IMG/VR virus record: IMGVR_UViG_2565956724_000001
Strand: one strand, 5' to 3'
Source of the DNA: a virus
Taxonomy: Duplodnaviria > Heunggongvirae > Uroviricota > Caudoviricetes
DNA: 4,107 nucleotides
The translations under genes and the position numbers were made by a program. Shown here piece by piece: positions 1 to 4,107 of the stretch (positions are counted from its first letter, which is position 1; each line of letters opens with the position of its first letter). A model generated the notes under the pieces. It made no database searches. It worked only from the letters and a program-made list of their open reading frames with translations, and had not been told where the DNA came from.

Positions 1-122
1 AGTTGCCATGTTTTACGGCAGTGAGAGCAGAGATAGCGCTGATGTCCGGCAGTGCTTTTGCCGTTACGCACCACCCCGTCAGTAGCTGAACAGGAGGGAC
101 AGCTGATAGAAACAGAAGCCAC
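1..122 (-). CDS. insA: IS1 InsA, N-terminal part (partial CDS running off the window)
   Basis: Minus-strand translation from the GTG at 122-120 gives [41 protein letters not shown]..., the InsA N-terminus as I recall it. The CDS continues past position 1. Confidence 0.8.
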
Positions 123-154
123 TGGAGCACCTCAAAAACACCATCATACACTAA

Positions 155-177
155 ATCAGTAAGTTGGCAGCATCACC
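155..177 (-). repeat. IS1 left terminal inverted repeat (IRL, 23 bp)
   Basis: atcagtaagttggcagcatcacc at 155-177 is the reverse complement of GGTGATGCTGCCAACTTACTGAT. It pairs with the IRR-type end at 3948-3970 (GGTAATGACTCCAACTTATTGAT). Confidence 0.85.
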
Positions 178-396
178 TATCACGGCATGCGAATTGAGCT
201 TAAAGAACCAAATGGTAAAGCCCCGACGAAAGAGCAGATCGCCTGGATGCGCAGGCTTAGAGAGGAAGGTTACTACGTCGTTCTTGCGTATGGTGCAGAA
301 CAAGCGATAACCGCCATCCTGGAATACATAAGCCTTAAAAAGGGTGAGGCTATTGAGCATGTATTGAACGGCGACAAGTGGTTGTATGCTGCTTAA
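178..396 (+). pseudogene. VRR-NUC domain nuclease, 3' fragment; 5' part displaced by the IS1 insertion
   Basis: The frame is open from the IS1 junction (178) to TAA at 394-396. Product ...YHGMRIELKEPNGKAPTKEQIAWMRRLREEGYYVVLAYGAEQAITAILEYI... matches the C-terminal half of the VRR-NUC (PD-(D/E)xK) fold, with the E-x-K element (IELK) and the GK..(S/T)..Q..W..L...G motif. The upstream PD/D element is absent. The listed ATG at 187 has no Shine-Dalgarno and lies 10 nt inside the junction. Confidence 0.6.
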
Positions 397-418
397 AATA
401 ATAAATTAATTAGTGCAT

Positions 419-443
419 ATGTGCTCTTTGATATAGCGCACAT
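419..443. promoter_or_regulatory. Near-palindromic element in an AT-rich intergenic region (possible operator or promoter-associated site)
   Basis: atgtgctct (419-427) and agcgcacat (435-443) form an 8/9 inverted repeat around a 7-bp spacer ttgatat. It lies between the VRR-NUC stop and the next gene, in sequence containing TTGATA- and TTAATT-like hexamers. No convincing -35/-10 pair with proper spacing was found. Confidence 0.25.
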
Positions 444-462
444 TAACATCGGGAGAATAATC

Positions 463-618
463 GTGTCATTCAAGGCTAATTATGAATCGCTGGCATCGAT
501 CATGCCGCGTAATGAACAGGAAGCAGATGCTGTAGTGGACCCGGTAATCGCTGAAATGAATGCTCGCCTGGAGGCTGAATTTGCAGCTGAGAATGAACAT
601 ACCACCCAGGGCGACTAG
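463..618 (+). CDS. Small acidic hypothetical protein (51 aa from GTG; the ORF track offers an ATG at 421 in the same frame)
   Basis: GGGAGA Shine-Dalgarno at 451-456 lies 6 nt upstream of GTG 463. Product VSFKANYESLASIMPRNEQEADAVVDPVIAEMNARLEAEFAAENEHTTQGD. It is co-directional with and overlapped by the next gene. No family recognised. Confidence 0.45.
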   Translation: MSFKANYESLASIMPRNEQEADAVVDPVIAEMNARLEAEFAAENEHTTQGD

Positions 619-1222
619 GACTGTTTTTTGTGTCGGTAGCGGTCCGTCACTCACTCGTGAGGACTGTGCTGCTATAGAAAAAACTGGCTGTTCAATCATC
701 GCGGTTAACAATTCCTGGCAGATGTTCGATGACATTTATGCCTTATACGCCGGTGATTTGTCATGGTGGAAGCAATACGGATCCACCATACCGGGAGGGA
801 GATTCCGCAAAGTGACAGCCAACCTGGCGGCGGCGAAATCATTTTCGTTGGAGTACAGGCGATATTGTGGACCGGCGGAAGGGGTAAATAGCGGCGCGCA
901 GGCTATCAGTCTGGCTGCTGAATCAGGGGCTGAAGTAGTGGTATTAGTCGGCTATGACTGTTCTCTGCAAAACGGCCTTCATTGGCATGGCGCGCACCCT
1001 CAAGCCCTACGGAATCCAACGCAGGTGTCTATTTCAAAATGGCAACAGCAGTTCCTGGATACCCGCAAAAAACACGCAGATTTACATATTTTGAATGCAA
1101 GTAGGAGCAGTGCAATTCAATGTTTCCCAAGAATAAATTTAGAGGCAGTGATCGCGTTATTATCGTCGGCAGTGGCCCAAGCGCCGCAAACTTTGTTGCG
1201 CCGCGCGGAGTGCCGATTATAG
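593..1222 (+). CDS. GSGPSL-motif Rossmann-type protein, paralog 1; GT42 sialyltransferase-like / MptE-like (DUF115) fold candidate
   Basis: Long ORF in frame 2 (track start 560; ATG 593 is an alternative). Has an N-terminal V-x-x-VGSGPSL (GSGPS at 635-649), then IIAVNN, and a C-terminal VNSGAQAISLAAESGAEVVVLVGYD...HWHG block. This resembles the Campylobacter Cst-II pattern (GNGPSL ... TSG..A.ALG..I.L.GID ... H) as I recall it. Start codon uncertain. The 3' end overlaps the next gene by about 100 nt. Confidence 0.6.
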   Translation: MNIPPRATRTVFCVGSGPSLTREDCAAIEKTGCSIIAVNNSWQMFDDIYALYAGDLSWWKQYGSTIPGGRFRKVTANLAAAKSFSLEYRRYCGPAEGVNSGAQAISLAAESGAEVVVLVGYDCSLQNGLHWHGAHPQALRNPTQVSISKWQQQFLDTRKKHADLHILNASRSSAIQCFPRINLEAVIALLSSAVAQAPQTLLRRAECRL

Positions 1223-1746
1223 CGGTCAATGGGGCCATCGACTGGCTTAACCGCGCTTCTTATTTTTTCACCCTTGATCCATCGCCAGACAATATGCGGC
1301 GCGTTGGTCGTGGCCGCCGTCGCCGTGGTGTTTGTTATTGCATGGCACTACCCGATGTTAAAGAACGTGAAGTCAGAGATGGCGTTCTGTGCTTCCGTCG
1401 TGTGGCTGAGCGCGGCACGGAGCCAAAAAATACGAATTCTCCCGAGTGGTGGGCGTGGCGCTGGTCCGCACATTTCGGCCTTTGCGAAGATGAGAATGAA
1501 ATTGCCAGCGGCAATAGTGCATATGGTGCTCTGAACCTGGCTTTCCATATCGGATTCAAACATGTCGCCCTGGTGGGCGTTGACGCTACACAAGAACCAC
1601 GCGTTCACTCCGGCGGCACGCCAAAAAATCTAAGTCACCTGCCTTTGTTATTCCAGTCTGCGCGTGAACAGATTGACGTTGTTTCATGCGGGAAAATGGG
1701 AGGTATTCCGCAGATGACTCTTAAAGAATGGCTGAAGAATACATGA
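1120..1746 (+). CDS. GSGPS-motif Rossmann-type protein, paralog 2, with an Arg/Cys-rich central insertion; GT42-like / MptE-like fold candidate
   Basis: AGGAG at 1103-1107 precedes ATG 1120. N-terminal VIIVGSGPS (1168-1182), then IIAVNG, and C-terminal [28 protein letters not shown]...HSGG align with paralog 1 on both sides within one frame. Stop TGA 1744-1746 overlaps the ATG of the phosphatase gene. Confidence 0.6.
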
Positions 1747-2420
1747 TGGCACCCACAATTTATCACCGTATCGACGGTACCAAATACAGGAATGTCTGGG
1801 TTGTTGGTGATCTGCATGGTTGCTACACCAGACTGATGTCCGAACTCCATCGTGTGGATTTTGACCCGGCGCAGGATTTACTGATATCGGTCGGCGACCT
1901 TATCGATCGCGGTACTGAAAATGTCGAATGTCTGGAACTATTGCAGATGCCCTGGTTCAGGGCAGTGATGGGGAACCATGAGCGGCTGATGATTGATGCG
2001 TTAAGTCCAGATGGCAACGTGAATAACTGGCTAATGAATGGCGGTCAATGGTTCTTCATGCTGGACGCTGATCAGGAAATATTAGCCAGGGCGCTGGTGG
2101 AGTTGGTAAGACGACTGCCCTATATCATTGAGTTGAACACCGGGCAAGAAACTATCGTTATAGCCCATGCCGACTATCCGGATAATGAATATCAATTCGG
2201 TAAGGAGGTGCCGCTTTTCAACGTTGTCTGGGCGCGCGAGCGTATCAGTGATTCGATGGATGATATTGGTGGCGAAATTTCTGGCGCAGATCGTTTTATC
2301 TTTGGTCACACTCCGGTGAAAAGCCCGAAGACATTCTGGAATCAGCATTATATCGACACAGGTGCCGTATTTTGCGGAAACCTGACATTGATGAAAGTGA
2401 AAGGTGATGGTGCAGCATGA
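1743..2420 (+). CDS. Ser/Thr protein phosphatase, PPP family, bacteriophage-lambda-phosphatase-like
   Basis: All three PPP signature motifs are present: GDLHG (1806-1820), GDLIDRG and GNHE. The whole product resembles lambda phosphatase as I recall it (..[56 protein letters not shown]..). Start ambiguous (ATG 1728, 1743 or 1746); 1743 overlaps the upstream stop as ATGA. End 2420 is firm. Confidence 0.85.
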
Positions 2421-3118
2421 AGATTGCTTTAGTTCTTCGCTCTGGTGGTGACTATAACGCTTCCGATGTGCAGTGGCTGGTTAATCAACTGCCAAAAGGC
2501 TATGAAATTATTTGCCTGACAGACCTGAAGCGTTTACATGTACCTGGCGTCAAAGTTGTCCCATTGATCAACCAGTGGCAAAAGTGCCGTGGCTGGTGGG
2601 CGAAAATCGAGTTGTTCCGACCGGATATAACCGATGATCTGTTCTATCTGGATTTGGACACGGTTATTGCCGGTGATATACGCCCAATCCTAGAGAATCC
2701 ACCAACCAGCTTCACCATGCTTAGGGATTTTTACCATCCACAATATCGTGGCAGCGGTGCCCTGTGGATACCAAATAGTGTAAAAGCGCATATCTGGAGT
2801 GCATTCTGGCAAGATCCGGAAGGTTGGATTGCTCGTTGTGTTACTACTGAATGCTGGGGTGAGCAGGGGTTTTTGCGGAAGGTTATGGGTGATGATACAC
2901 CAGCATTTCAGGATCTGTATCCGGGATGGTTTGTAAGTTACAAGGCCGATGTTGTGGAACCTGGTTCGAAATATGCGAGCGCGCGTTACTCCAGGGGGAA
3001 TGGGGCATTACCAAAAGACTGCCGAATAATCTTTTTCCACGGCAAACCGCGACCTCGCGAAGTGTCAGAGGATTGGCTTCCCCTTATCAGCTCATTTTTT
3101 GAGCGAGAATCAGAATAA
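2417..3118 (+). CDS. DxD-motif protein, putative GT-A-fold nucleotide-sugar transferase (function uncertain)
   Basis: ATG 2417-2419 overlaps the phosphatase stop TGA 2418-2420. Has an N-terminal beta-strand-like KIALVL..GGDYN, a hydrophobic stretch, then D-L-D (FYLDLDTVI, 2651-2659), and a C-terminal FFHGKPRP reminiscent of the H-x-x-G-x-x-KPW element of GT8 enzymes. Followed by a terminator. Confidence 0.55.
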
Positions 3119-3146
3119 TATTGCTCTAATAATTCCATATTTTTAA

Positions 3147-3174
3147 AACGTGATGTACACTCATCACGTTTTTT
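3147..3174. terminator. Rho-independent terminator hairpin, probably bidirectional, inside a larger 64-bp palindrome
   Basis: 9-bp stem aacgtgatg (3147-3155) / catcacgtt (3162-3170) with loop tacact, then a run of six T on + (3169-3174) and an A/T tract on the other side. Flanked by perfect 12-bp inverted repeats ttgctctaataa (3121-3132) / ttattagagcaa (3173-3184). Sits 29 nt after the stop of the DxD gene. Confidence 0.55.
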
Positions 3175-3199
3175 ATTAGAGCAATCTATAAGGTGCACT

Positions 3200-3418
3200 A
3201 TGTGGCCATTCCGACGGAAATATCACTACTGGCTGATCGCCTTTGTTACGCCGACCGGCGGTATCAGGCATGTCATCACCAGGTATCGCAACAAGAGACT
3301 CACCTTAGCCAGAATTTTACAGGCTGCCATAGGTGAGGGACTGGATACAAATTGCGTAGTCCTTCCACCTTCATACTTAGGAAAAATGACCGAAGCACAA
3401 GCTAATACGGAACTTTGA
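3200..3418 (+). CDS. Hypothetical protein (72 aa)
   Basis: ORF with AAGGTG 5-10 nt upstream of ATG 3200. No recognisable motif; contains several rare Arg/Ile codons. A competing antisense ORF (3226-3447, TTG start, no RBS) covers the same DNA, so coding status is uncertain. Confidence 0.3.
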   Translation: MWPFRRKYHYWLIAFVTPTGGIRHVITRYRNKRLTLARILQAAIGEGLDTNCVVLPPSYLGKMTEAQANTEL

Positions 3419-3577
3419 AATGAGCACTTCAGCACAAAACCAATCAATCGAAAATGTATCTAGAGGAAACTGCGGCAAGAAGACTTCTCGATGTTTGCTA
3501 TGCACGTAGCGATGCATGGGAAAAAGAGAACGGCGGCACTATTTACGTTCGCTGATAGTTACAGTGTCACTTTTAAT

Positions 3578-3608
3578 GCTGGTGGAGTGCTCCCACCAGC
3601 ATTTTTTT
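3578..3608 (+). terminator. Rho-independent terminator
   Basis: GC-rich hairpin gctggtggag (3578-3587) / ctcccaccagc (3590-3600) with a one-base bulge, followed by TTTTTTT (3602-3608). Confidence 0.6.
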
Positions 3609-3627
3609 CGTCCAATGAGGAGGGCAT

Positions 3628-3947
3628 TTGAGTATTTTCAATAAACACGCACACCAGGAACGTCCGTACATCGTCATAGTAGATATTGATGGGACGATAT
3701 CAGAGGCAACGGAAGACAGGCTGCATTTACTTCCACCACCTGGCAAAGGTGCATTAACAGAGCACTGGAACGAGTTTAACCTTGCCTGTGACACTGATGC
3801 TCCCATCACTCCAGTTATTGATATGGTGCGCCAGTTGTCCGGCATTTACACCCTCTGGTTTGTAACCGGGCGCTGTGAGATAGCCAGGGATAAAACACGA
3901 GCCTGGTTGCGTAAGCACGTAACAAATGGGGCTGAGCCTTTGCTATC
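3628..3947 (+). pseudogene. HAD-superfamily phosphatase, PNK-3'-phosphatase-like, 5' fragment truncated by the IS1 insertion
   Basis: Strong Shine-Dalgarno GAGGAGG (3617-3623), then TTG start at 3628. HAD motif I D-I-D-G-T at 3682-3696 (IVIVDIDGTIS); downstream CDTD...TPVIDMV...VTGR resembles the T4 polynucleotide kinase phosphatase domain as I recall it. The reading frame runs directly into the IS1 end at 3948, so the native C-terminal motifs are missing; the last 6 codons plus the stop of the listed ORF are IS1-encoded. Confidence 0.6.
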
Positions 3948-3970
3948 GGTAATGACTCCAACTTATTGAT
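3948..3970 (-). repeat. IS1 right terminal inverted repeat (IRR, 23 bp)
   Basis: ggtaatgactccaacttattgat at 3948-3970; imperfect inverted repeat partner of the end at 155-177. Confidence 0.85.
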
Positions 3971-4107
3971 AGTGTTTTATGTTCAGATAATGCCCGATGA
4001 CTTTGTCATGCAGCTCCACCGATTTTGAGAACGACAGCGACTTCCGTCCCAGCCGTGCCAGGTGCTGCCTCAGATTCAGGTTATGCCGCTCAATTCGCTG
4101 CGTATAT
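3963..4107 (-). CDS. insB: IS1 InsB (InsAB' transposase), C-terminal part (partial CDS running off the window)
   Basis: Minus-strand translation ends ...[47 protein letters not shown] with stop TAA (complement of 3963-3965) inside the IRR. Confidence 0.8.

What the first reader, a model, noticed from the sequence alone, without database searches (positions are those of the whole stretch)
2417..3118. DxD protein with a compressed H-G-KP C-terminal element
The 233-aa product has the hallmarks of a small GT-A nucleotide-diphospho-sugar transferase: an N-terminal strand, an aspartate triad within a hydrophobic strand (YLDLDTVI) and a C-terminal His-Gly-Lys-Pro element (FFHGKPRP). It is shorter than typical GT8 enzymes and I do not recognise it as a named phage protein. 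It is the last gene before the terminator, so it may perform the final step of the cassette.
Basis: partly seen in the sequence, partly recalled or inferred. Interest (0 to 1): 0.55.

Follow-up and report, generated by a model that had tools for sequence, protein, structure and literature searches.

The report
Phage P1 PmgQ, small GT8-like glycosyltransferase
The ORF is phage P1's PmgQ (HdmD in P7), a minimal glycogenin/LgtC-type (GT8-like) sugar transferase of unknown substrate. It belongs to a conserved phage glycan-building gene set that usually sits among head genes, so P1-like phages may sugar-coat a virion protein, which is untested.

Summary
In detail: ORF 2417-3118 encodes 233 aa with D79-L-D81 and F206-FHGKPRP-213. 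The window is a P1-type prophage segment bracketed by IS1, and the ORF is the named gene pmgQ (P1) / hdmD (P7).

The GT-A reading holds. A 100-sequence family profile hits only GT8 enzymes in the PDB (GlyT 2.4e-8, glycogenin about 6e-7). The AlphaFold model (pLDDT 95.7) matches only GT8 structures in its top 50. D79 and D81 are invariant.

The C-terminal element really is a shortened GT8 H..G..KPW motif, but the conserved basic residue is R212 (R/K in 98%), not K210. Pfam's GT8 threshold is not reached, so this is an uncurated minimal GT8-like family (about 2,000 clusters, mostly 190-230 aa).

New context: PmgQ homologues are adjacent or fused to Maf-like transferases (PmgO/PmgP) and sugar-type methyltransferases. 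The best inference is a virion-protein glycosylation module, analogous but not homologous to the mycobacteriophage system.

pmgQ is dispensable in the laboratory yet under purifying selection (pN/pS 0.16). This window's allele carries a rare D149E change at a catalytic-motif Asp.

The parts
2417..3118 (+). pmgQ / hdmD: 233-aa minimal GT8-like GT-A glycosyltransferase (the finding). Key residues: LRSGG 7-11, K63, D79-x-D81, S113, G148-E149-Q150 (D149 in nearly all relatives), S174, K176, H208-G209-x-P211-R212-P213.
560..1222 (+). pmgO: Maf/MptE-like (sialyltransferase-like) putative glycosyltransferase, partner of PmgQ. Homologues suggest the real start is near 593.
1120..1746 (+). pmgP: paralogue of PmgO (phrog_2111, weak MptE-like). 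Overlaps pmgO by 103 nt.
1728..2420 (+). ppp: lambda-type Ser/Thr protein phosphatase, translationally coupled to pmgQ (ATGA overlap). Not part of the conserved module outside P1-like phages.
364..419 (+). PpmgN promoter (TTGAAC 364-369, TATGCT 385-390) and C1 operator Oppp (403-419, minus strand). Mapped from the P1 annotation by a constant offset of 5823. This is the control region of the pmgN-pmgQ unit.
421..618 (+). pmgN / hdmA small ORF (the P1 annotation starts at 463), first gene of the unit.
3120..3185 (.). Inverted repeat. The outer arms are C1 operators OpmgRa (3120-3136 +) and OpmgRb (3169-3185 -). The inner part is a terminator-like hairpin 3145-3172 followed by a U run. It ends the pmgQ unit and controls pmgR.
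3200..3418 (+). pmgR: 72 aa, essential in P1 for head completion / head-tail joining (literature). Immediate downstream neighbour of pmgQ.

Best explanation
PmgQ is a soluble, minimal, metal-dependent (DxD) retaining-type GT-A glycosyltransferase of a GT8-like family.

Mechanism, inferred from GT8 enzymes:
- D79 and D81, and probably H208, hold a divalent metal that binds the diphosphate of a UDP-hexose.
- R212 (the KPW-lysine equivalent) contacts the diphosphate.
- The G148-D/E149-Q150 motif positions the sugar.
- The hexose is transferred in alpha linkage to an acceptor glycan.

PmgQ is the last gene of the C1-repressed pmgN-pmgO-pmgP-ppp-pmgQ unit, so it is expressed during lytic growth and not in the lysogen. 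It works together with the Maf-like transferases PmgO and PmgP. In other phages the same module also includes sugar-type O-methyltransferases.

Most probable target: a virion (head or connector) protein, i.e. a phage virion-glycosylation module. It is functionally analogous to the mycobacteriophage Che8/Corndog system but built from unrelated glycosyltransferases.

Shown here: fold, family, motif conservation, synteny and fusions, purifying selection. Inferred: donor sugar, retaining chemistry, metal ligands, order of steps, and the acceptor.

My confidence by layer: GT8-like GT-A enzyme about 0.9; functional module with PmgO/PmgP about 0.75; virion protein as acceptor about 0.45.
For: Enzyme class:
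- The family profile hits only GT8 chains in the PDB (6mw5 GlyT 2.4e-8; glycogenin about 6e-7; GlyE 1e-4), with the DxD, SG, GDQ and G..KPW blocks in register.
- hhalign to E. coli WaaJ and WaaO gives E 6e-4 and 2.6e-3 with the same blocks.
- AF2 model pLDDT 95.7. The Foldseek PDB top 50 are all GT8. BFVD hits include phage 'GT family 8' proteins at TM 0.77.
- D79, D81 and K63 are invariant.

Module:
- PmgO-like and PmgP-like genes flank PmgQ homologues in Xanthomonas phage XacN1, Citrobacter phage phiNP, E. coli phage EP_H11 and a Martelella prophage.
- 22 of 36 dereplicated viral lineages have an O/P-like gene adjacent or fused.
- Single polypeptides combine the PmgQ-like domain with MptE-like and/or SAM-methyltransferase domains: P0238, P0272, P0242, P0281, and P0303 with all three.
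- The PmgO model's only good structural match is Maf, a flagellin O-glycosyltransferase (5mu5, TMq 0.59).

Target:
- The same is seen in at least 3 architectures among 80 IMG/VR loci and in at least 17 of 76 genomic loci.
- Partner genes are glycan-tailoring enzymes: FkbM, TylF/Methyltransf_24, a pyruvyl transferase, and a nucleotide-sugar island.
- In the proven mycobacteriophage system, Corndog gp36-38 sit directly upstream of the capsid protease, and Che8 gp108 is a GT fused to a TylF methyltransferase. XacN1 has a TylF::PmgQ fusion (the methyltransferase domains are related, E 3e-5).
- In P1 the next gene, pmgR, acts in head completion.
- The unit carries a C1 operator and lies downstream of a late promoter in P1.

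Selection: pN/pS 0.16 among 52 P1-like alleles.
Against: - No biochemical or mass-spectrometric evidence exists that any P1 virion protein is glycosylated. The P1 virion proteome paper reports none.
- In-frame deletions of pmgQ, pmgO, pmgP and ppp gave no plaquing or antirestriction defect, and CRISPRi scores pmgQ as non-essential.
- Structural operons also host morons that act on the cell, so position is not proof.
- Some homologues sit in moron-like or orphan positions: next to int and the tail fibre genes in phage Chlobot, between lysis genes and terS in phiNP, and as a lone chromosomal gene in Pantoea.
- PmgQ shows no homology to the validated mycobacteriophage GTs.
- PmgQ misses Pfam's GT8 threshold.
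- I could not read model coordinates, so the H208 metal-ligand role is inferred only. Sequence alignments place the canonical GT8 His 1-2 residues upstream.
- This window's allele has D149E at the catalytic-motif Asp and may be impaired.
Confidence: 0.5

Rival explanations
1. Host envelope modification. PmgQ, with PmgO/PmgP, adds sugars to the LPS core or another envelope glycan during lytic growth. For example, it could mask the terminal core glucose that P1 uses as receptor, so that progeny are not lost on debris or superinfection is limited.
For: - GT8 includes the LPS-core alpha-glucosyl/galactosyl-transferases, and the profile aligns to E. coli WaaJ and WaaO with motifs in register. LgtC is among the fold matches.
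- The family is found almost only in phages and prophages of diderm, LPS-bearing bacteria. None were found in Firmicutes or Actinobacteria.
- Some homologues sit in moron-type positions: Chlobot next to int and the tail fibre genes, and phiNP after the lysis genes.
- That the LPS core is the P1 receptor comes from my own knowledge, not from a tool result.
Against: - The unit is C1-repressed, so it is silent in lysogens and is not a lysogenic-conversion function.
- The protein is 233 aa against 337-338 aa for WaaJ/WaaO and lacks their C-terminal extension.
- The best sequence and fold matches are GT8 enzymes that act on protein-linked glycans (GlyT, glycogenin, GlyE), not the LPS enzymes.
- 8 of 10 sampled contexts are inside head/connector clusters, co-transcribed late, when new LPS synthesis has little time to reach the surface.
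- The partner's nearest structure, Maf, is a protein glycosyltransferase.
Confidence: 0.2
2. Another cytoplasmic acceptor. The module glycosylates a host protein or a small molecule as a host-takeover or auxiliary function, comparable to GT-A toxins and effectors or to self-glucosylating glycogenin. It is unrelated to the virion.
For: - PHROG 1962 is filed under 'moron, auxiliary metabolic gene and host takeover'.
- The closest solved relatives (glycogenin, GlyT) act on cytoplasmic proteins.
- In P1 the gene is coupled to a Ser/Thr phosphatase, a typical host-directed enzyme.
- There is no laboratory phenotype.
Against: - It does not explain the repeated insertion inside head/connector clusters in unrelated phage lineages.
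- It does not explain the recurrent glycan-tailoring partners: O-methyltransferases, a pyruvyl transferase and a nucleotide-sugar island.
- Ppp is not conserved with the module outside P1-like phages.
Confidence: 0.15
3. This particular copy is decaying. The window comes from an IS1-riddled P1-like element, and its pmgQ allele (D149E) is functionally impaired or neutral cargo.
For: - IS1 interrupts pmgM and pap, and pmgS carries a 1127-bp deletion in this window.
- Glu149 replaces an Asp that is conserved in 98 of 100 family members and in 80 of 82 P1-like copies.
- The aligned residue in glycogenin (Asp of GGDQG) was targeted by catalytic-site mutants deposited in the PDB.
Against: - The ORF is intact, and D-to-E is conservative.
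- pmgM, pmgS and pap are all non-essential in P1, so the element need not be defective.
- The gene family as a whole is under purifying selection (pN/pS 0.16).
- This rival concerns the allele, not what the gene is.
Confidence: 0.1
4. DNA glycosylation. PmgQ transfers a sugar to modified bases in phage DNA as an anti-restriction device.
For: Phages are known to glucosylate DNA (general knowledge).
Against: - No fold or sequence similarity to DNA glucosyltransferases appears among the hits; all top matches are GT8.
- The partner methyltransferases are FkbM, TylF or generic class-I types, not DNA methyltransferase families.
- Delta-pmgQ P1 has a normal antirestriction phenotype.
- P1 is not known to carry hypermodified bases (my own knowledge).
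Confidence: 0.03

Closest known systems
CAZy GT8 / Pfam PF01501 retaining GT-A glycosyltransferases (glycogenin, Skp1 alpha-galactosyltransferase GlyT, GlyE, LgtC, WaaJ/WaaO)
   Same: GT-A fold. DxD after beta-4. An S-G block, a G-D-Q block and a C-terminal His / basic-Pro(-Trp) block in the same order. These are the only families hit by profile and fold searches.
   Different: - Below Pfam's gathering score: no hit for this protein, and the best family member reaches only E 0.02.
- About 190-230 aa against 260-340 aa, with no C-terminal extension.
- The His-to-basic-residue spacing is shortened by 2: H-G-x-P-[RK]-P versus H-x-x-G-x-x-K-P-W.
- It has its own N-terminal V-L-R-S-G-G and W-W-A-K-x-E-L-F signatures.
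- Donor, acceptor and stereochemistry are untested.
Mycobacteriophage virion glycosylation cassettes (Che8 gp108-110, Corndog gp36-38; Freeman et al. 2023, as summarised in PMC12363180)
   Same: - Sets of small GT-A-type glycosyltransferases plus a TylF/Methyltransf_24 O-methyltransferase (fused to a GT in Che8 gp108 and in the XacN1 PmgQ homologue).
- Located in or beside the head gene cluster (Corndog, and most PmgQ-family loci).
- I recall from Freeman et al. 2023 (not held here, so unverified) that those genes are also dispensable for plaque formation; dispensability is shown here only for the P1 genes.
   Different: - The glycosyltransferases are unrelated: GT2-like and GT25-like against GT8-like and Maf-like. 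hhalign gives E 0.4-0.6.
- Hosts are actinobacteria against diderm bacteria.
- Glycosylation of virions is proven there and only inferred here.
Maf (motility accessory factor) flagellin glycosyltransferases, PF01973 MptE-like (for the partner proteins PmgO/PmgP)
   Same: The PmgO model's single convincing PDB match is Maf 5mu5 (TMq 0.59). There are weak PF01973 hits and sub-threshold CstII sialyltransferase hits.
   Different: PmgO and PmgP are about 200 aa, only the central Maf domain. They fall below Pfam's threshold (23.4 and 20.9 against 34.6 bits). E. coli K-12 makes no CMP-pseudaminic or CMP-legionaminic acid; CMP-Kdo would be the only resident ulosonic-acid donor (my inference).
PHROG 1962 ('glycosyltransferase') / P1 PmgQ / P7 HdmD
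   Same: Full-length match, E 3.9e-127. 97-98% identical to P1 and P7 proteins.
   Different: None in kind. This allele carries D149E. The historical names 'putative morphogenetic function' and 'head morphogenesis' were guesses from map position.

Membership tests
GT-A fold glycosyltransferase | Single Rossmann-like alpha/beta/alpha domain with an N-terminal nucleotide-binding half | tested here: met
   AF2 model pLDDT 95.7, with beta1 (2-7)-alpha-beta2-beta3-alpha-beta4 (75-78) followed by DxD. All top-50 PDB matches are GT-A GT8 enzymes.
GT-A fold glycosyltransferase | DxD metal/diphosphate-binding motif after a hydrophobic strand | tested here: met
   D79 and D81 are invariant in 100 of 100 sequences. 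They align to the DxD of GlyT, glycogenin and WaaJ/WaaO.
GT8 (CAZy) / Pfam PF01501 Glyco_transf_8 | Score above Pfam's gathering threshold | tested here: not met
   No PF01501 hit for this protein at E<=1. 16 of 100 family members give weak hits, best E 0.02.
GT8 (CAZy) / Pfam PF01501 Glyco_transf_8 | Significant profile or fold similarity to solved GT8 enzymes | tested here: met
   hmmsearch of the family profile: 6mw5 at 2.4e-8, glycogenin at about 6e-7, 5gvv at 1e-4, with GT8 only. Foldseek E about 2e-8, TM 0.55-0.61.
GT8 (CAZy) / Pfam PF01501 Glyco_transf_8 | Sugar-binding (N)SG and (G)DQ motifs | tested here: met
   S113 92%, G148 97%, D149 98%, Q150 87%, aligned to NSGV and GDQG of glycogenin. 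This window's allele has E149.
GT8 (CAZy) / Pfam PF01501 Glyco_transf_8 | C-terminal H-x-x-G-x-x-K-P-W (metal-binding His, diphosphate-binding Lys) | tested here: inconclusive
   A shortened variant, H208-G209-x-P211-[R/K]212-P213-(W), is conserved. The alignments disagree by 1-2 residues on which position faces the GT8 His.
GT8 (CAZy) / Pfam PF01501 Glyco_transf_8 | Retaining (alpha) transfer from a UDP-hexose, dependent on a divalent metal | not testable with these tools
   Needs an enzyme assay and product NMR or MS.
LPS-core GT8 transferases (WaaJ/WaaO type) | About 335-aa architecture with a C-terminal extension; an LPS-core acceptor | tested here: not met
   233 aa against 337-338 aa. 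The hhalign alignment ends at the KPW block, leaving about 60 extra residues in WaaJ/WaaO. E is only 6e-4 and 2.6e-3. The acceptor is not testable.
Mycobacteriophage virion-glycosylation cassette (Che8 gp108-110 / Corndog gp36-38) | Homology of the glycosyltransferases | tested here: not met
   hhalign E 0.4-0.63 against gp37, gp38, gp109 and gp110. Those proteins are GT2-like and GT25-like.
Mycobacteriophage virion-glycosylation cassette (Che8 gp108-110 / Corndog gp36-38) | GTs plus a TylF-type O-methyltransferase, in or beside the structural (head) genes | tested here: met
   Met at family level: 8 of 10 look-ups lie inside head/connector clusters, and TylF/Methyltransf_24, FkbM and class-I methyltransferases are adjacent or fused. 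In P1 itself there is no methyltransferase, and the unit abuts the head-completion gene pmgR.
Mycobacteriophage virion-glycosylation cassette (Che8 gp108-110 / Corndog gp36-38) | Glycans demonstrated on capsid or tail proteins | not testable with these tools
   Requires mass spectrometry of virions. No report was found for P1.
PHROG 1962 | Full-length profile match | tested here: met
   E 3.9e-127, residues 1-233 against profile positions 1-230 of 230.
Known anti-phage defence systems (PADLOC) | Match to any defence-protein model | tested here: not met
   No hit for PmgQ, PmgO, PmgP, Ppp or PmgR at E<=0.01.

The most novel reading that the evidence does not exclude
Phage P1 and thousands of phages and prophages of diderm bacteria decorate a head or connector protein with a short, tailored glycan. 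The glycan would be made by a dedicated three-part module: a Maf-like transferase (possibly using CMP-Kdo or another ulosonic acid), a minimal GT8-like hexosyltransferase (PmgQ), and in many lineages a sugar O-methyl- or pyruvyl-transferase. This would be the first virion-glycosylation system outside the actinobacteriophages. It would be evolutionarily independent of the mycobacteriophage one, and present in a classic model phage for which clean deletion mutants already exist.
Probability: 0.35. Interest if true: 0.8.

Novelty: new member of a known kind. Interest (0 to 1): 0.45.

Why it matters
Taken alone, the finding is a correct but ordinary call. The gene has a name, databases already label it 'glycosyltransferase', and it is dispensable in the laboratory.

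What adds value is the context found here:
- PmgQ belongs to a large uncurated minimal GT8-like family of about 2,000 clusters at 50% identity.
- The family is genetically locked, by adjacency and by fusion, to Maf-like transferases and sugar methyltransferases.
- It is repeatedly embedded in phage head/connector operons.

That turns four 'putative morphogenetic' P1 genes that have lacked a function since the 2004 P1 genome annotation into a testable hypothesis: virion glycosylation in phages of Gram-negative bacteria. Existing mutants and routine mass spectrometry would suffice to test it.

Virion glycans affect antibody recognition in mycobacteriophages (as summarised in PMC12363180), so the question bears on phage therapy and on P1-based delivery vectors.

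Tried and rejected
- The first IMG/VR scan with the full alignment returned only P1-like loci and gave no diversity. I repeated it with a distant sub-alignment.
- My naive ORF caller lost the target gene in 21 loci and was noisy in high-GC genomes. I fixed it by forcing in the HMM-best ORF. The 'Q/MT24' labels on proteins of about 210-240 aa are artefacts of a methyltransferase seed cut from a fusion protein, and I ignored them.
- Simple proximity to head genes (13 of 36 lineages) is not clearly above chance, which is roughly 0.3 for a +-4-gene window. I therefore used 10 look-ups with real gene calls and Pfam labels and asked whether the gene lies inside the module (8 of 10; P about 0.002 at p = 0.3, my calculation).
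- Model coordinates are not exposed, so I could not measure the H208-D79/D81 geometry.
- The capsid proteins next to the module end in short Ser/Gly/Ala tails. This is suggestive of acceptor tails, but I had no control set, so I do not use it as evidence.
- The P1 genome paper (PMC523184) and Freeman 2023 (PMC10527164) are not held. I took Freeman's results second-hand from PMC12363180.
- Literature searches for pmgQ, hdmD, DUF115 + phage, and Maf + capsid glycosylation found no functional study.
- Considered and rejected: a defence-system role (no PADLOC hit), a DNA glucosyltransferase role, and lysogenic conversion (the unit is C1-repressed).
Full report
**1. What the window is**

The 4107-bp window is a segment of a P1-type phage-plasmid.
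- Bases 178-3947 match phage P1, P7 and many P1-like plasmids at 97-100% identity.
- Both ends (1-177 and 3948-4107) are IS1 termini (read directly; IS1 transposase annotations).
- The gene order is pmgM' (VRR-NUC remnant, cut by IS1), pmgN, pmgO, pmgP, ppp, pmgQ, pmgR, a deleted pmgS, and pap' (cut by IS1).
- The finding is pmgQ of P1 (AAQ14061.1, 'putative morphogenetic function'), which is hdmD of P7 ('head morphogenesis'). Those names were guesses from map position.
- RefSeq re-annotations and PHROG 1962 already call it 'glycosyltransferase'.

**2. Check of the observation**

- ORF 2417-3118 encodes 233 aa.
- D79-L-D81 lies in YLDLDTVI, and F206-FHGKPRP-213 is present (counted by hand).
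- Its ATG overlaps the ppp stop codon (ATGA).
- In a 100-sequence alignment of homologues (28-76% identity), V6, K63, D79 and D81 are invariant. L7-R8-S9-G10-G11, W60-W61, E65, F67, D104, S113, G148, D149, S174, K176, H208, G209, P211 and P213 are each conserved at 90% or more.
- Position 212 is R or K in 98% of members, while K210 is variable.

**3. What it is**

- The single sequence hits no Pfam or NCBIfam model.
- The family profile hits only GT8 enzymes among 177,635 PDB sequences: Skp1 alpha-galactosyltransferase GlyT (2.4e-8), glycogenins (about 6e-7 to 4e-5), GlyE (1e-4) and 3tzt. The DxD, SG, GDQ and G..[KR]PW blocks are in register.
- The AlphaFold2 model is very confident (pLDDT 95.7, pTM 0.92). 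Its 50 best Foldseek matches in the PDB are all GT8: GlyT, glycogenin, GlyE, WbbM, 3tzt, LgtC and XXYLT1 (E about 2e-8 to 1e-6, TM 0.5-0.6).
- Profile-profile alignment to E. coli's own LPS-core GT8 enzymes WaaJ and WaaO is weak (E 6e-4 and 2.6e-3) but shows the same blocks.
- The alignments disagree by 1-2 residues on where the GT8 metal-binding His falls.
- An exhaustive HMM search of 1.84 billion cluster representatives finds 2,083 proteins at E<=1e-30 and 4,587 at E<=1e-10. Most are 190-230 aa. The short length is the norm for a distinct, uncurated, minimal GT8-like family.

**4. Surroundings in P1**

- The P1 annotation places a sigma-70 promoter (PpmgN) and a C1 operator (Oppp) upstream of pmgN, and a late promoter further upstream at pmgL. 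Both PpmgN and Oppp are retained in the window at 364-419.
- Directly after the pmgQ stop lie two inverted C1 operators (3120-3136 and 3169-3185; 2 matches against 0.04 expected).
- These operators flank a hairpin plus U-run. The whole inverted repeat folds at -26.9 kcal/mol (z -6.55).
- pmgQ is therefore the last gene of a repressor-controlled lytic unit.

**5. The cassette**

- PmgO and PmgP are paralogues: phrog_4603 and phrog_2111, with weak PF01973 MptE-like hits.
- A model of PmgO (pLDDT 89.4) has one convincing PDB match: Maf, the flagellin O-glycosyltransferase (5mu5, TMq 0.59).
- PmgO-like and PmgP-like genes accompany PmgQ homologues in unrelated phages:
  - Xanthomonas jumbo phage XacN1: 4603, 2111, then a TylF-methyltransferase::PmgQ fusion.
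  - Citrobacter phage phiNP: 2111, then 1962.
  - E. coli phage EP_H11: 4603, a GT-B, then 1962.
  - A Martelella prophage.
- Among 80 diverse IMG/VR loci, collapsed to 36 lineages at 60% identity, 22 have an O/P-like gene adjacent or fused and at least 11 have a methyltransferase.
- Multidomain members fuse the PmgQ-like domain to MptE-like domains (P0238, PF01973 E 4.8e-20), to SAM methyltransferases (P0242, P0281), or to both (P0303, 978 aa). BFVD shows similar 685-700-aa fusions.
- Ppp is not conserved with the module outside P1-like phages.

**6. Where the module sits**

- Cluster representatives of the recurrent neighbours are TerL, portal, Mu-F, HK97-type or Gp13-type major capsid proteins, Ad1 adaptors, Hc1 head-closure proteins and FkbM methyltransferases.
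- Mere proximity could be chance, so I looked up 10 family members chosen for contig length only, with database gene calls and Pfam labels.
  - Eight lie inside head/connector clusters. Examples: MCP-...-Q-head closure; head closure-MptE-like-methyltransferase-x-Q-gp10-like; Mu-F-...-Q-...-MCP; and, in a podovirus, capsid-...-FkbM-Q.
  - One lies in a phage nucleotide-sugar island next to the adaptor gene.
  - One is an orphan chromosomal gene.
- With a generous chance rate of 0.3, eight or more out of ten has P of about 0.002 (my calculation).
- Other partners are a polysaccharide pyruvyl transferase and a sugar-biosynthesis island.
- In 80 loci from bacterial genomes the hosts are almost all diderm bacteria. 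At least 17 loci are prophage head modules with the same order.

**7. Comparison with the known system**

- Virion glycosylation has been demonstrated in mycobacteriophages Che8, Corndog and Myrna (Freeman et al. 2023, as summarised in PMC12363180).
- Corndog gp36-38 lie directly upstream of the capsid maturation protease.
- Che8 gp108 is a GT2 fused to a TylF/Methyltransf_24 methyltransferase. gp110 and Corndog gp38 are GT25-like.
- PmgQ is not homologous to any of them (hhalign E 0.4-0.63).
- The XacN1 methyltransferase domain is related to that of gp108 (BLASTP 3e-5).
- The PmgQ module therefore looks like an analogous system, not an orthologous one.

**8. Genetics and selection**

- In-frame deletions of pmgO, pmgP, ppp and pmgQ in P1 were among the 24 knockouts with no plaquing or antirestriction defect. 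CRISPRi also scores pmgQ as non-essential.
- Among 52 distinct P1-like alleles, pN/pS is 0.16 for pmgQ, 0.15 for ppp, 0.09 for pmgP and 0.07 for pmgO. The genes are therefore maintained by selection outside the laboratory.
- This window's allele has Glu149 (GAG), where 80 of 82 P1-like copies (including P1 and P7, GAC) and 98 of 100 family members have Asp. The residue aligns with the Asp of the glycogenin GGDQG motif.

**9. Verdict**

- The GT-A / GT8-like interpretation is supported.
- The protein is a named but biochemically uncharacterised phage protein.
- The best-supported mechanism is a DxD/metal-dependent retaining hexosyl transfer, acting with Maf-like PmgO/PmgP in a lytic-phase glycosylation module. 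Its most probable acceptor is a head or connector protein.
- The acceptor, donor and order of steps are inferences.
- The main rival is modification of LPS or another envelope glycan.
- No paper describing this module was found.

Noticed in passing
window 1-177 and 3948-4107: Both window ends are IS1 termini in the same orientation (IRL ends at 177, IRR starts at 3948). The P1 segment 178-3947 is therefore bracketed like a composite transposon. The insertions truncate pmgM (VRR-NUC nuclease) and pap (HAD phosphatase / PNK-like).
   Followed up: partly
window 3419-3627: pmgS carries a 1127-bp internal deletion relative to P1. The remnant ORF starting at 3420 stops after 29 codons. The strong terminator-like hairpin at 3575-3603 is retained.
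   Followed up: partly
window 2861-2863 (codon 149 of pmgQ): A rare D149E substitution (GAC to GAG) at the Asp of the GT8-type G-D-Q motif. Asp is present in 80 of 82 P1-like copies and 98 of 100 family members. Glu149 is shared only with plasmid p1585m1_C and one IMG/VR contig.
   Followed up: yes
window 1120-1222: pmgO and pmgP overlap by 103 nt in different frames, and ppp overlaps pmgP by 19 nt. Homologues of PmgO start about 11-40 residues later than the annotated 220-aa ORF, so the annotated pmgO start (which overlaps pmgN) is doubtful.
   Followed up: partly
window 3120-3185: The two C1 operators (Op86a/b of P1) form the outer arms of a 66-nt inverted repeat. Its core is a terminator-like hairpin followed by a U run. 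Repressor binding sites and a transcript-end structure are thus superimposed between pmgQ and pmgR.
   Followed up: partly
L007 4338-5654 (Xanthomonas phage XacN1 ORF373): A natural fusion of a TylF/Methyltransf_24 O-methyltransferase domain with a PmgQ-like domain, preceded by PmgO-like and PmgP-like genes and followed by a 1088-aa PKD-domain protein.
   Followed up: partly
L259 1209-11326 (metagenomic phage contig carrying P0087): The PmgQ homologue is embedded in a phage-borne sugar-biosynthesis island: hexapeptide acyltransferase, DegT aminotransferase, epimerase, PfkB kinase, SIS isomerase, a split TPP enzyme, a cytidylyltransferase and a radical-SAM protein. The island lies directly upstream of an SU10-type adaptor gene.
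   Followed up: no
L260 4799-5521: A polysaccharide pyruvyl transferase (PF04230) lies two genes upstream of the PmgQ homologue, between the major capsid gene and the adaptor gene of a siphophage-like contig.
   Followed up: no
L144 624-938 and about 14 related loci: A conserved 104-aa Thr/Ala/Gly-rich ORF with no PHROG or Pfam match always sits between TerL and the PmgQ homologue in one phage lineage (order: TerL, 104 aa, Q, FkbM methyltransferase, portal). It is a possible partner or acceptor.
   Followed up: no
L108, L115, L127, L183, L187, L190 (capsid genes next to the module): The HK97-type major capsid proteins encoded beside the module end in short Ser/Gly/Ala tails (for example TIGSSGA, DGLPASA) after the conserved YRPEAFVKGDF. 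No control set was examined.
   Followed up: no
L009 8001-8633 (Candidatus Pantoea floridensis chromosome): A 49%-identical PmgQ homologue sits alone between lpdA and acnB in a bacterial core-metabolism region, with no phage genes nearby.
   Followed up: no
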